From the IMG/VR virus record IMGVR_UViG_2562617113_000019: a stretch of DNA of 43,127 nucleotides; one strand, 5' to 3'. Source of the stretch: a virus. Its lineage: Duplodnaviria > Heunggongvirae > Uroviricota > Caudoviricetes. Position numbers: made by a program. Position 1 is the stretch's first letter. Every line of letters starts with the position of its first letter. Positions 15,001-18,000 of the stretch are shown here, in pieces.

Positions 15001-18000
15001 ATTACGGCATAAAAAGTAGCCAGATTCTTTACATCCACGGCAATGCATCCTTACCTGGAGATAAGCTTATTCTGGGACATGGTATTGAGCCGGAAAATTT
15101 CAAAGAGCTTCCTCAAAAACCGCCTAGGGACGTAACGGACGAAGAGCTGGAAGAGTGGTATCAGCACATGTCTGATAATTACGATATTGCATATGAAAGC
15201 GGAAAACAGACTCTGAATCGGTACTTTACCCATTCGTTCAAAAATACAGTGGAAGTGATGTCTGCAGACCAGGCATTTTTCTCTCAACTCAACGCGGTAA
15301 ACGAGGTGATCATTGTTGGACATTCTTTATCAGCGGTCGACATGCCTTACTTCGCTGCCATTAAACAACACGTCCAGCCTAATTCGACCTGGACAGCAAC
15401 ATGGTATCTTGAAAAAGAACGTAAACAACACCTACATGCGTTGCAGAGCATAGGCATTGAATACCCCCTGATTGTGCCCGTATGTAGCCTGCTGACACGG
15501 TCGTGACTACAACGAAATAGTGCTCGTCTAAGCAGGAGTGTTAGTTTAAATGGCGTTATGTCCGCCGTTCGCTCATATTGGACCTGAAGACACGCTGGTT
15601 GGTCCCCTTTGTACCAAAATAGATGTCATTACAGCGGTTAGTTTTGGGTGGTCAATCATACATTTGAATAACATTATTGCGTTTTTATCAACGGGAACAG
15701 TTCACTGTTATCAGGTAATGTGGAGTTAATGATTTTCATGTGGTAAATGTATTTTCATTACAACCATCCATTTCCTGTCCTAAAAGATAAAGCTATGAAT
15801 AGGTCAAACGAAGACGATATTGAAAAAACCAAATCACTGATTTCGACAGGTGCAGAGATAGCTGGTGCTGCAGTTGGCGGCGCAATTGGCTTTTTTGCAA
15901 CTGGCCCTTTGGGAGCTGCCGGGGCTGGTTCGTTAGGGGTGATTGTCGCGAAAGCTGGTACAAAACTTCTCAGTGATATGGCTGAGCGTGCGATGTCTGC
16001 ACGCGAAAAAGTCCGCGTTGGTGCAGCAGCAGCAGTTGCATTCGATAAAATTGAAAGGGCTGTTCTGTCAGGTAATGAACCCAGAAAAGATGGCTTCTTT
16101 AACTCTGAAGAAGGAAAGCGCAGTAATGCAGAAGAAATTCTGGAGGGAACGTTAAGAAGGGCGCGTGAAGAGTATGAGGAAAAGAAGATTCTCCTTCTAG
16201 GGAATTTTTATGCAAATATGGTCTACTCTCCGGGAGTGAGTACTGAAGAAGCTAATTACTATCTCCGGTTGTTCGATTCACTGACGTATCGGCAGCTCTG
16301 TATTATGAGTTTGATCATGATGAAACCGCACTATTCTGACTTTCAAAATCTCAGAAACCATGACTATAGAACCCAAAATGCCAACATGCAGGCAAGTACT
16401 GTAGCACTCCTCCAAGAAATTTATGCTCTGTATAATTTGGGATTAGTCTGCGTTAGGAGTGCAGGCGGAAATGGTTATGTAGCTTTGCTGGCATGGCATG
16501 ATATCATCCCTTTCGGATTAGAATTTACAGGGTTAGGTGAAAGGTTTTACAATCTTTTTATGGGGGGAGGAAGCTTTTCACTTCCCGATATTTCTACTAT
16601 CGCAGAAGCTTTGCGTTAAGAATGAACATTTCGATTCAAAGCTTCCATCCCCTGCTCATTAACCCAGGAGTTGTTAGACGCGAGTCCTCGTTGATAACAA
16701 TTATAAACTTCCGCTCCTCGCTCAGCGCGGACCTTCTGCCCAGTGAGCTAGTCCGCTACGAGCCAGAAGTGGAGCATGTAGTACTAATTATTAGAGAGTA
16801 AATCATTATGTATCGGATTGAATCTTGACTCACAGGTGGCACTATATTTCATATTGTAATTTGTGCACATATGCAGATGGTTACAGTTTTAGCTATGTTT
16901 TGTAATTTTAAAAATAAAATTCATTGCTTGTTTATTGATGTGTTTGTATTAAAGAATCCATTTTGTAGCCCTCTATAGAGGGCTCTACAAAGATAGTCAG
17001 TATTATTGTTACGAGTATCGTTTAAAGTCATATAAGCTAACAAGTCTTTTATAATCTGAGTATGACATTCCAAGGGAAACTCCTTCCCTCAAATATCCCT
17101 CGATATTATCAAGGTCAATATTGTTTACATATGTGTTGTAAAAAATAACTCGAACGAGTTTGTACGGTTTGAATCCGAGGGAAATGATTTCATCTACTGT
17201 GCCGTAGTTAATTCTTTCAGATTCATCAATAGAATTAAAATAGGTGGTAAGATTTGTTTCCTGATTCTTTTTAAGTTGCTCAATATTTTTTATTTCATTA
17301 CATATTGTGGAAAATCCATGCGCAGTAAAATACTGTGTTCGGGTTACTTTTATTTTATTCAATAACATGATTAGCGCATCATTTTTGGAATCCATGATTT
17401 CAAAATAATTCATAACCATTTCGGATGCTGATTGATAATGGTAAGTTATTTTCTGTATAGAGCCAACAGCCATGACTAGTTCGTCATTAGCTAAGTTATC
17501 TAAATCACCAACTATTTTTACTTTAACTGTACCACCTTCTTTTATTTTTCTCATTACTCCTTCAACCTTTCTAATATCCATAGATGATACTGGAAGTTTA
17601 AGGTTTATTAACTCCTCAAAAATCCCTTGAAAATTATCGGTTTTAATCTTATTGATTTTAATATTACCAATATTTTCGATAACCACATCATGTTCAAGCA
17701 CTTCAAGGGAATTGTTGTCTGCGTCTCGTTCAATGAGCAGAAAATTATTTCTAACCTTATTGGCCAAATTGGAATCTTTAGGAATATAAGAAAAAATTGT
17801 TTTCAGAATATCTCTGATATTCTCATCGCTTATGCTATAGCCGATAAATACAATAGGATTGTGAATAAACAAAGAAATGAGTTGGGCTCTAATTAAGTGA
17901 TTGTTGATTTTAAATCTTTCATAATCGGAATCTGAAATCACAATAGATTCAGGATGTGAAACGCAACCGTGTATTTTATATACAGATCCGTAAGGGTTAC

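What the first reader, a model, noticed from the sequence alone, without database searches (positions are those of the whole stretch)
15747..16619. Glycine-zipper protein convergent with the SIR2-like gene
The N-terminus has an extended small-residue zipper (GAEIAGAAVGGAIGFFATGPLGAAGAGSLGVIVAKAG), typical of membrane-inserting or pore-forming segments, followed by an unrecognised domain of about 200 aa. It could be a membrane-disrupting effector of a defence system, either standalone or working with a neighbour.
Basis: inference. Interest (0 to 1): 0.55.

Follow-up and report, generated by a model that had tools for sequence, protein, structure and literature searches.

The report
Stand-alone glycine-zipper defence-island cassette protein
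This is a real, self-contained gene from a large uncharacterised protein family found in bacteria and archaea; it sits as its own cassette in a prophage anti-phage hotspot and is a credible but untested candidate for a one-protein, membrane-acting phage defence.

Summary
The ORF is real, but the conserved start is 15795 (274 aa), not 15747. The glycine zipper is genuine and conserved (GxxxGxxxG, a Gly-Pro turn, then a second small-residue helix). It is followed by a helical middle domain with invariant charged motifs and a C-terminal winged-helix fold. No Pfam, NCBIfam, PHROG, PADLOC or PDB family covers the protein. The family is nevertheless large: 2,416 clusters at 50% identity, almost all about 265 aa, spanning many bacterial phyla and archaea.

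The gene works alone. It has no conserved neighbour in 63 diverse loci. It occurs in 61 of 5,426 complete E. coli genomes, and 60 of those lack the AbiH and SIR2 neighbours. Here it is one cassette in a row (PD-T4-7, AbiH, this gene, SIR2/PDC-S25). The gaps between these genes each hold a copy of a ~25-nt repeat. In other prophage contigs this repeat borders highly variable cargo that includes many known defence genes. Elsewhere, family members lie next to Tmn, DRT2, restriction-modification systems, transposases and integrases, but also next to ordinary housekeeping genes.

Best reading (about 0.4): a single-protein, membrane-acting defence or abortive-infection candidate. Membrane activity, toxicity and anti-phage activity are all untested.

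The parts
15795..16619 (+). Coding sequence of the glycine-zipper protein (274 aa plus stop; RefSeq WP_024201164.1), the conserved reading frame
   Evidence: ORF list; RefSeq annotation; homologues start at this Met; dN/dS 0.13-0.30 against Enterobacterales copies
15747..15794 (+). In-frame 16-codon extension of the longest ORF; probably 5' leader rather than coding
   Evidence: The ATG at 15747 is not conserved (AGG/ACG in relatives) and an indel breaks the frame
15849..15959 (+). Glycine-zipper helical hairpin (aa 19-55): GxxxGxxxG helix, Gly-Pro turn, second small-residue helix; predicted membrane-inserting or membrane-associating module
   Evidence: Invariant or near-invariant G19/G24/G32/G37/P38/A41/G48; hydropathy and composition; sub-threshold hits to Gly-zipper, DUF456, DUF1269 and MamC families and to the LeoBC hairpin region
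15960..16229 (+). Helical middle domain (aa 56-145) carrying the invariant or near-invariant charged residues (R65, R70, E71, R74, R97, D99, F101, F102, R109, E114, E117, E126, E128-E129-K130-K131)
   Evidence: Alignment; AF2 model helices H46-64, H69-91, H111-125, H129-143 with pLDDT 83-96; no solved-structure relative by sequence or Foldseek
16230..16616 (+). C-terminal winged-helix-like domain (aa 146-274) with the conserved LTYRQLC and LLQE motifs, P239 and G248
15584..15794 (+). Cassette-internal upstream region (promoter/leader); the last ~100 nt are conserved among Enterobacterales copies about as well as the CDS
   Evidence: Alignments; no Rfam hit and no excess RNA folding, z = 0.3
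15557..15583 (+). Left cassette-boundary repeat (TATGTCCGCCGTTCGCTCATATTGGAC)
   Evidence: Repeat family D2; pattern search gives 4 hits against 0.17 expected; homology with the island copies of the cassette starts at 15558
16706..16732 (+). Right cassette-boundary repeat (AACTTCCGCTCCTCGCTCAGCGCGGAC); it is also the left edge of the separately mobile SIR2 cassette
   Evidence: the target-cassette homology ends at 16724 and the SIR2-cassette homology starts at 16706
14313..14339 (+). Further copy of the boundary repeat, between PD-T4-7 and AbiH
18884..18910 (+). Further copy of the boundary repeat, between the SIR2 cassette and the conserved hok/sok backbone
   Evidence: the same junction is seen in 39 of 120 IMG/VR loci

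Best explanation
The gene encodes a stand-alone, horizontally mobile accessory protein of a large uncharacterised family. It is carried here as one single-gene cassette in a prophage defence hotspot. The proposed mechanism has four steps. (1) The short charged N-terminus and the whole C-terminal part stay in the cytoplasm. (2) The glycine-zipper hairpin (aa 19-55) associates with, or can insert into, the inner membrane. (3) The helical domain and winged-helix domain (aa 56-274) act as the sensing and regulatory part. They probably bind a protein or other ligand rather than DNA, because the domain is acidic and its 'recognition' helix is not basic. (4) On a phage cue the protein oligomerises through GxxxG packing of the zipper helices and makes the membrane leaky. 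This aborts the infection or blocks an early step at the membrane.

Shown: the anatomy, the conservation, purifying selection, stand-alone cassette status and the hotspot setting. Inferred: membrane insertion, the sensor role, oligomerisation, and the anti-phage function itself.
For: Real conserved family: 192+ word-indexed hits. The profile finds 2,416 representatives at 50% identity, 1,207 of them at E<=1e-30, nearly all 250-300 aa with one architecture.

Confident model: pLDDT 88.6, pTM 0.85, with a wHTH-like C-terminal domain.

Zipper residues are conserved across phyla.

Purifying selection: dN/dS 0.13-0.30.

Stand-alone status: no neighbour is conserved in 63 loci from more than 12 phyla. 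The cassette 15558-16724 recurs at 93-95% identity in 60 other E. coli genomes without AbiH or SIR2.

Patchy distribution: 61 of 5,426 E. coli genomes, with copies at about 92% amino-acid identity in Dickeya and Cedecea, which indicates an accessory, horizontally moving gene.

Defence setting here: PD-T4-7 (6e-141), AbiH (Pfam 3e-58) and SIR2/PDC-S25 (7e-143) are the adjacent cassettes. All are separated by one repeat. In at least 120 viral contigs this repeat borders hypervariable cargo that includes PifA, HEC-06, RT_UG17, ThsB, PD-T7-1, DarG, DzbA and ShosA homologues.

Defence or mobile neighbours elsewhere: Tmn 8e-217 with an integrase and IS110 in Dickeya; Drt2 4e-144 with type I RM in Fictibacillus; type II REase with a D12 MTase and integrase in L088; PDC-S06 in an E. 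coli O111 island; AbiD-like, DUF4238-like and Mrr-like genes in Collinsella, identified by eye from sequence.

Nearest neighbours hit 316 PADLOC models, against 81 for genes more than 6.5 kb away. Their commonest Pfam families are transposases, DNA methylases and nucleases, whereas the distant genes are mostly housekeeping.

One family member is fused to an ADP-ribosylglycohydrolase in the antitoxin position of a DarT operon.

Vassallo et al. 2022 (PMC9519451) show that E. coli prophage hotspots carry small clusters of defence genes.
Against: No experiment exists, and no hit to any validated defence model. The only PADLOC hit is LeoBC at 3.7e-5, confined to the Gly/Ala-rich hairpin plus one helix.

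About a third of the annotated contexts look like plain chromosomal neighbourhoods: Aeromonas next to parC/parE, Methanobacterium, Chromohalobacter and a 2-Mb metagenomic contig.

No homologue was found in 50,697 deposited phage genomes or among the 132 cargo ORFs next to the repeat in IMG/VR.

Zipper hydropathy (1.2-1.5) is below the usual transmembrane threshold, and each helix is only about 17 residues long. It may therefore be a peripheral or monotopic anchor, or a buried helix pair, rather than a pore.

The PADLOC model counts are crude: ORF calling was my own, the models are redundant, and the number of proteins with any hit is not available.

A small Listeria clade keeps the core but lacks the zipper.
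Confidence: 0.4

Rival explanations
1. Superinfection exclusion at the inner membrane. The hairpin anchors the protein at the membrane, and it blocks genome entry of incoming phages without killing the cell. One possible route is interference with the channel built by the phage tape-measure or ejection proteins, which themselves carry glycine-zipper segments.
For: The gene has a prophage (lysogen-expressed accessory) location among defence genes. A membrane hairpin has both ends predicted to be cytoplasmic. The only viral structural or profile similarities, all non-significant, are to tape-measure proteins through the Gly-rich segment. It is established knowledge, not tested here, that prophage membrane proteins such as HK97 gp15, P22 SieA and T4 Imm block DNA entry.
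Against: The tape-measure similarities are insignificant (PHROG E 0.018; Foldseek E>0.5). Only 1 of 61 E. coli copies is in a prophage, and most family members are outside prophages. A conserved 220-aa cytoplasmic domain with invariant charged residues is more than a simple plug would need.
Confidence: 0.18
2. An accessory membrane-associated protein with no role in phage defence. Examples would be a stress or envelope-homeostasis factor, or a membrane-tethered winged-helix regulator or adaptor. It would simply hitch-hike as cargo of mobile elements.
For: Several contexts contain only metabolic or housekeeping neighbours. The family spans bacteria and archaea with one fixed architecture. Glycine-zipper hairpins also occur in non-toxic membrane proteins (DUF456, DUF1269, MamC and C19orf12-like weak hits). 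The C-terminal fold resembles wHTH regulators.
Against: Occurrence is very patchy (1.1% of E. coli). There is recent horizontal transfer between genera. The gene is repeatedly adjacent to validated defence systems and mobile-element genes in unrelated lineages. It sits in a repeat-delimited slot of a defence hotspot. The wHTH is acidic and has a non-basic recognition helix, which argues against a DNA-binding regulator.
Confidence: 0.27
3. A self-contained toxic or addiction-type module. The zipper would be a membrane toxin held in check by the protein's own C-terminal domain or by an unrecognised small RNA or peptide. The module would stabilise the mobile element rather than defend against phage.
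For: The zipper resembles bacteriocin or type-I-toxin-like Gly/Ala-rich membrane peptides (my own knowledge; weak GnsAB, RTX and Romo1 hits). The cassette lies next to hok/sok. One relative is fused into a DarT toxin-antitoxin operon.
Against: There is no second conserved ORF or structured RNA inside the cassette. The upstream 59-aa ORF is broken by indels in relatives, there is no Rfam hit, and folding z = 0.3. The protein is far larger than type I toxins. Many such modules are in any case now known to act in defence, so this overlaps the best explanation.
Confidence: 0.1
4. It is a component (effector) of a multi-gene system together with the upstream AbiH-like gene or the convergent SIR2-like gene.
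For: Physical adjacency in this window only.
Against: Of 61 E. coli genomes with the gene, only this one has AbiH or SIR2 next to it. The SIR2 cassette (16706-18911) occurs alone in other genomes (H2-H13). Homology blocks break at the repeats between the genes. No neighbour cluster is shared across 63 diverse loci. PADLOC's own labels for AbiH and PDC-S25 indicate single-gene systems (the 'S' series; my reading of the name).
Confidence: 0.03

Closest known systems
Sensor-coupled membrane effectors of phage defence (RexAB; the CRISPR-associated Cam1 and Csx28; CBASS 2TM effectors such as Cap15; 2TM retron effectors)
   Same: The proposed logic is the same: a cytoplasmic sensing part coupled to small transmembrane helices whose oligomerisation depolarises the inner membrane and aborts infection. 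Cam1 (PMC10808066) and Csx28 (10.1101/2021.11.02.466367) appeared (titles and abstracts only); the rest is my own knowledge. The setting among defence genes is also shared.
   Different: There is no sequence or fold relationship. Here sensor and effector would be one 274-aa polypeptide with no partner gene and no CARF, SAVED or nucleotide-signal module. The hairpin is Gly/Ala-rich and only marginally hydrophobic.
Glycine-zipper membrane-active toxins and peptides (class II microcins/colicin V, the T6SS effectors Tse4 and Ssp6, the VacA N-terminus) and the Pfam Gly-zipper families (PF05433, PF13441, PF13488)
   Same: Tandem GxxxG/GxxxA repeats on two short helices joined by a turn. Weak profile similarity (E 0.009-0.04) to Gly-zipper_YMGG and Rick_17kDa_Anti in some family members. 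One homologue carries a precomputed PF13488 hit.
   Different: All hits are below the Pfam gathering scores. There is no signal peptide, lipobox or secretion domain. The zipper is at the N-terminus of a cytoplasmic 220-aa conserved domain and is not a secreted peptide. That these toxins form pores is my own knowledge and was not tested.
Paddle/hairpin region of the bacterial dynamin-like LeoBC (the 'Eleos' defence system in PADLOC)
   Same: The only PADLOC hit: aa 24-142 against profile positions 447-552 of 601, E 3.7e-5. This corresponds to a Gly-rich membrane hairpin plus the following helix.
   Different: The hit covers under 20% of the LeoBC profile. There is no GTPase or stalk region and no LeoA partner. 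The score (21 bits) is inflated by composition. The protein is not a member.
Winged-helix domains (Rio2 N-terminal domain, TubR, ArsR/SmtB, MarR, HxlR)
   Different: Sequence identity is 9-20% and there is no profile hit. The domain is acidic and its third helix (LLQEIYALYNLGL) lacks basic residues. There is a ~25-residue insertion between helices 2 and 3. It is probably not a DNA-binding regulator.
Prophage superinfection-exclusion membrane proteins (HK97 gp15, P22 SieA/SieB, T4 Imm)
   Same: Small membrane-anchored proteins expressed from prophages that protect the lysogen (my own knowledge). A frameshifted sieB lies in the same prophage.
   Different: No homology was detected. This family is mostly non-prophage and far more widespread.

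Membership tests
Pfam glycine-zipper families (Gly-zipper_YMGG PF13441, Rick_17kDa_Anti PF05433, Gly-zipper_Omp PF13488) | Repeated GxxxG small-residue motif on a helical hairpin | tested here: met
   G24-x3-G28-x3-G32, G37-P38 turn, then A41...G48; conserved in 35 homologues
Pfam glycine-zipper families (Gly-zipper_YMGG PF13441, Rick_17kDa_Anti PF05433, Gly-zipper_Omp PF13488) | Profile score above the curated gathering threshold | tested here: not met
   The window protein has no hit to these families. The best among 35 relatives is E 0.0092 (YMGG) and 0.039 (Rick_17kDa_Anti), both sub-threshold
Pfam glycine-zipper families (Gly-zipper_YMGG PF13441, Rick_17kDa_Anti PF05433, Gly-zipper_Omp PF13488) | Small outer-membrane or lipoprotein context (signal peptide or lipobox before the zipper) | tested here: not met
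   The N-terminus MNRSNEDDIEKTKSLIS is charged, with no hydrophobic signal or lipobox Cys (direct reading)
Multi-gene system with AbiH or SIR2 (PDC-S25) | Conserved co-occurrence and co-transfer with the partner gene | tested here: not met
   1 of 61 E. coli carriers has these neighbours. The cassettes have separate homology blocks. No neighbour is shared in 63 loci
Eleos/LeoBC bacterial dynamin-like proteins | Full-length match including the dynamin GTPase/stalk regions, and a LeoA partner | tested here: not met
   The hit is limited to profile positions 447-552 of 601 at E 3.7e-5. No GTPase domain is found and there is no adjacent dynamin gene
Winged-helix DNA-binding transcription factors (MarR/ArsR/HxlR) | wHTH fold | tested here: met
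Winged-helix DNA-binding transcription factors (MarR/ArsR/HxlR) | Sequence-profile membership and a basic DNA-recognition helix | tested here: not met
   No Pfam or PDB profile hit. The helix LLQEIYALYNLGL has an invariant Glu, and the domain has net charge -3
Any known or candidate defence protein in PADLOC-DB v2.0.0 | Significant full-length HMM match | tested here: not met
   Only the partial LeoBC hit. Systems described after 2023 could not be screened
Defence-island gene (operational definition: enriched next to known defence genes) | Neighbourhoods enriched in known defence or mobile-element genes relative to background | tested here: inconclusive
   Near neighbours hit 316 PADLOC models against 81 for distant genes, and the Pfam contrast agrees. 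However, ORF calling was crude, the models are redundant, and several contexts are housekeeping
Integral membrane / pore-forming protein | Experimentally or algorithmically confirmed transmembrane insertion and oligomeric pore | not testable with these tools
   Only hydropathy could be computed (1.2-1.5, borderline). No TM predictor, multimer modelling or model coordinates were available
Pfam PF27507 (precomputed on two homologues) | Match to that model | not testable with these tools
   P0081 and P0105 carry PF27507.1 in the precomputed column. The local Pfam copy does not report it, and no paper mentions it

The most novel reading that the evidence does not exclude
The family is a previously unrecognised immune protein that is a single polypeptide and is shared by bacteria and archaea. 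A novel helical plus winged-helix sensor directly gates its own glycine-zipper hairpin into a membrane pore. This would be a minimal 'sensor plus pore in one chain' abortive-infection device, distributed as a repeat-delimited cassette in a prophage/island hotspot system whose ~25-nt hairpin boundary element (with an adjacent Chi site) mediates cassette exchange.
Probability: 0.25. Interest if true: 0.72.

Novelty: new variant of a known kind. Interest (0 to 1): 0.5.

Why it matters
If it is confirmed as a defence protein, three things follow. It would add a very compact (274 aa, one gene) and very widespread (about 2,400 clusters at 50% identity, bacteria and archaea) family to the catalogue of anti-phage systems. 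It would supply a new sensor fold. It would also offer a simple model for how a marginally hydrophobic glycine zipper is kept harmless and then switched into a membrane lesion.

Independently of that, the repeat that separates the cassettes gives a practical sequence handle. It can be used to find the edges of a defence-cargo hotspot in enterobacterial prophages and islands, and so to mine the unknown genes in those slots.

Tried and rejected
(1) Partner hypothesis (AbiH or SIR2): rejected by cassette mosaicism and lack of co-occurrence.

(2) Hidden second gene or RNA in the cassette: the 59-aa ORFs at 15550-15729 and 16622-16801 are not conserved in frame or extent. There is no Rfam hit and no excess RNA folding in the leader. 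My first impression that the leader was 'hyper-conserved' was wrong: about 8% divergence, the same as the CDS.

(3) Sequence or structure relatives: the PDB profile search gave only de novo designed helical proteins at E>=0.008. Foldseek against PDB and BFVD gave nothing at E<=0.001. The afdb50 library was unavailable.

(4) The LeoBC hit: judged to be compositional and hairpin-only.

(5) Literature: no paper was found for the accessions, for PF27507, for a glycine zipper combined with anti-phage activity relevant to this family, or for the repeat sequence.

(6) The repeat as an integron attC-like folded site: DNA folds differ between copies and some copies lack the stem, so this is not supported.

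(7) The repeat as a site for the flanking 'inovirus Gp2 family' proteins of the E. coli islands: none of the 120 IMG/VR loci carrying the repeat encodes a Gp2 homologue, so this is rejected.

(8) DarT/ARH association as a general feature: it occurs in only one locus, and no DarT or ARH is found near any other family member held.

(9) The zipper-less Listeria branch searched for alternative N-terminal effector modules: it is only a small Listeria-restricted clade.
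Full report
**Where the window comes from.** The region 12800-19300 is 100% identical to the chromosome of E. coli NADC1036. There it lies in a Rac-like lambdoid prophage, between the replication genes (DUF1376 protein, P, DUF1627, DUF977) and the hokD/nin-type genes (DUF1367, DUF1364).

**Checking the observation.** The ORF 15747-16619 (+) exists, and the quoted Gly/Ala-rich segment is present.
- The conserved start is the ATG at 15795, giving 274 aa (RefSeq WP_024201164.1). All homologues begin at the equivalent Met. In the closest relatives the 15747 ATG is AGG or ACG, and an indel breaks the upstream frame.
- The SIR2-like gene is convergent, as stated.
- The zipper is not chance low complexity. 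In 35 homologues with 34-92% identity, G24 and G32 are invariant, and G19, G37, P38, A41 and G48 are conserved in at least 90%.
- The segment has 31 uncharged residues in a row. It contains the classic G24-x3-G28-x3-G32 motif, a Gly-Pro turn and a second small-residue helix.

**What the protein is.** It has no hit above threshold in Pfam, NCBIfam or PHROGs. In PADLOC it has only a 21-bit partial match to the hairpin region of LeoBC.
- The family is nevertheless large and uniform. A profile of 35 members finds 2,416 representatives of 50%-identity clusters (1,207 at E<=1e-30), almost all 250-300 aa and matched end to end.
- A genome scan found members in Enterobacterales, Chloroflexota, Bacteroidota, Acidobacteriota, Actinomycetota (Collinsella), Cyanobacteria, CPR bacteria, Poribacteria, Spirochaetia, Deinococcales, Nitrospirales and methanogenic archaea.
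- Every source calls these proteins 'hypothetical'. Two relatives carry a precomputed PF27507 label that I could not resolve.
- Nothing in PDB or BFVD matches the whole fold.
- The invariant polar residues (E71, R97, E129, K131, Y165, Q167, E208, plus the motifs R-x-D-G-F-F, E-x-E-E-K-K and L-T-Y-R-Q-L-C) lie in the cytoplasmic part.
- The winged-helix domain has net charge -3, and its third helix is non-basic. I therefore infer that it binds protein or a small ligand rather than DNA.
- The gene is under purifying selection, with dN/dS 0.13-0.30 between the E. coli, Cedecea and Dickeya copies.

**It is a stand-alone cassette.**
- In 63 diverse loci, no neighbouring gene family recurs except among near-identical Collinsella genomes.
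- In E. coli the gene is present in 61 of 5,426 complete genomes. Sixty of these carry a copy at about 95% identity. In the five of these that I inspected it sits in one slot of CP4-type integrative islands, between two 'inovirus Gp2/YagK-YfjJ family' genes, with varying neighbours and without AbiH or SIR2.
- The shared DNA is just 15558-16724. The SIR2 cassette (16706-18911) is found alone in other strains.
- There is no second conserved ORF or structured RNA inside the cassette.

**The boundaries are marked by a repeat.** A ~25-nt element with core TCCGCnnnTCGCTCAnnGCGGAC occurs four times in the window, always on the + strand. Its arms GTCCGC(T)/(A)GCGGAC can form a short hairpin that presents the invariant TCGCTCA.
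- Each copy lies in one intergenic gap of the cluster: 14313 (between PD-T4-7 and AbiH), 15557 (AbiH and target), 16706 (target and SIR2) and 18884 (SIR2 and hok/sok). That is 4 hits against 0.17 expected.
- The same repeat flanks the cassette in the E. coli islands.
There the left flank is hypervariable and the right flank is often the conserved hok/sok-proximal backbone, in 39 of 120 loci.
- The ORFs on the variable side fall into 102 clusters out of 132 ORFs. They include strong homologues of PifA, HEC-06, RT_UG17, ThsB, PD-T7-1, DarG, DzbA, ShosA and several PADLOC candidate families.
- So the target occupies one slot of a genuine defence-cargo hotspot, in line with Vassallo et al. 2022 on prophage hotspots (PMC9519451).
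- I could not establish what the repeat does. Its DNA folds are inconsistent between copies, it matches no Rfam family, and it is not linked to the Gp2 genes.

**Contexts elsewhere are mixed.**
- Next to defence or mobile genes: Dickeya (Tmn 8e-217, integrase, IS110); Fictibacillus (Drt2 4e-144, type I RM); a metagenomic contig (integrase, D12 methylase, type II REase, MqsA-like); an O111 island (PDC-S06); Collinsella (AbiD-like, DUF4238-like, Mrr-like by eye); a Listeria plasmid (HEPN protein, AAA ATPase, recombinase); Pusillimonas (transposase).
- Among ordinary genes: Aeromonas, Methanobacterium, Chromohalobacter and a 2-Mb contig.
- The 141 nearest neighbours hit 316 PADLOC models, against 81 for 141 genes more than 6.5 kb away. 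Their commonest Pfam families are DDE transposases, DNA methylases and nucleases, whereas the distant set is housekeeping. This is suggestive but crude.
- No member is found in deposited phage genomes.

**Mechanism.** I commit to the following as most likely (about 0.4): a single-protein membrane-acting defence. The charged N-terminus and the 220-aa core are cytoplasmic. The hairpin is a latent or peripheral membrane element. A phage-derived cue sensed by the helical/wHTH core drives oligomerisation through GxxxG packing. The resulting membrane leak aborts infection.
- Shown: the anatomy, conservation, selection, autonomy and hotspot setting.
- Inferred: membrane insertion, sensing, oligomerisation and the defence function.
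- The borderline hydropathy and the 17-residue helices fit a conditional inserter or a monotopic anchor better than a constitutive transmembrane pair.
- Rivals: superinfection exclusion at the membrane (0.18); a non-defence accessory membrane protein or adaptor (0.27); an addiction-type toxin module (0.10); a component of an AbiH or SIR2 system (0.03, effectively refuted).

**Comparison with what is known.** It would work like the sensor-plus-membrane-effector systems (RexAB, Cam1, Csx28, Cap15, 2TM retron effectors) and like glycine-zipper toxins. It is a member of none of them: every membership test based on profile or fold failed, except for the generic GxxxG motif and the generic wHTH fold. 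I therefore rate it a new variant of a known kind, conditional on the defence role being real.

**Limits.** There was no TM predictor, no multimer modelling, no access to model coordinates, no post-2023 defence HMMs and no afdb50. Gene calling in the fetched loci was my own simple ORF picker.

Noticed in passing
window 14313-14339, 15557-15583, 16706-16732, 18884-18910 (all + strand); also L002 7004/8157, L003 6089/7001/8154, L083 and L085 8764/9917: A ~25-nt imperfect direct repeat (consensus GTCCGCTnnTCGCTCAaAGCGGAC, with short hairpin arms around an invariant TCGCTCA) sits in the gaps between PD-T4-7, AbiH, the target, SIR2 and the hok/sok backbone, and it coincides with the homology breakpoints where those could be mapped (15558, 16706/16724, 18911). 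An exact-pattern scan of IMG/VR hit the 120-contig limit. On its variable side lie 102 different gene clusters, including many known defence genes (PifA, HEC-06, RT_UG17, ThsB, PD-T7-1, DarG, DzbA, ShosA). It matches no Rfam family, and no paper containing the sequence was found. Its function (recombination joint, protein-binding hairpin or terminator-like element) is unknown.
   Followed up: partly
window 18953-18960: A Chi sequence (GCTGGTGG) lies about 45 nt to the right of the last boundary repeat. It is conserved in the commonest right flank of the repeat in IMG/VR contigs (...AAGAAGTGCTGGTGGTGAC). It could stimulate RecBCD recombination at the hotspot edge. Not tested.
   Followed up: no
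L092 1782-5831 (ENA ERZ25069191 contig, 6.9 kb): The only domain fusion among the top 150 family representatives. P0146 (750 aa) has an N-terminal ADP-ribosylglycohydrolase (PF03747, 7e-39) joined to a complete family module (aa 488-749). It is encoded immediately downstream of, and overlapping, a DarT gene (PF14487) and a UvrD-like helicase, so it sits in the antitoxin (DarG) position of a DarT operon. This is a single low-coverage instance; no other family member held is near DarT or ARH.
   Followed up: partly
L012 5863-6738 (Listeria seeligeri plasmid pLIS4) and P0266-P0273: A small Listeria-restricted clade keeps the conserved core (R-x-D-G-F-F, E-x-K-K, LTYRQ motifs) but replaces the glycine zipper with a different N-terminal segment that is not Gly-rich. 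On the plasmid it sits next to a HEPN-domain protein, an AAA ATPase, a recombinase and an IS3.
   Followed up: partly
window 13092-14117, 14529-15506, 17009-18517: The three neighbours are a PD-T4-7 homologue (PADLOC 6e-141), an AbiH family protein (Pfam 3e-58) and a SIR2 protein of PADLOC candidate family PDC-S25 (7e-143). The PD-T4-7 and AbiH cassettes were found in no other complete E. coli genome at megablast level.
   Followed up: partly
window 21928-23179 and 24783-25917 (from RefSeq annotation of L001): The same prophage carries two AB5-type toxin operons. One is a scabin-related ADP-ribosyltransferase with a subtilase-family B subunit. The other is an enterotoxin A-family gene with an enterotoxin B gene. 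From memory, this matches the published description of LT-II enterotoxin prophages that also encode a pertussis-like toxin. Not verified here.
   Followed up: no
window 19214-19389, 19384-19539, 19548-19628: A hokD toxin ORF with a sok antitoxin RNA (Rfam RF01794, 105 bits) and a sub-threshold isrK-like match lie just right of the hotspot.
   Followed up: no
L014 (JAEYLX010000008.1, 'Bacillota bacterium' MAG, 6.5 kb): This contig carries the E. coli-island version of the cassette (92% aa identity), the same boundary repeats and Gp2-family genes. It is probably an enterobacterial contig mis-binned into a Bacillota MAG.
   Followed up: no
L213 (E. coli ATCC 25922) and L214 (E. coli E24377A): Diverged copies (77-79% identity) of the 73-nt version of the boundary element occur in 434 of 5,426 E. 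coli genomes. One example lies in an island next to a dynamin-family gene and an integrase. Another lies in a lambdoid prophage between the DUF1367/DUF1364 genes and a run of hypothetical, GIY-YIG and HNH genes.
   Followed up: partly
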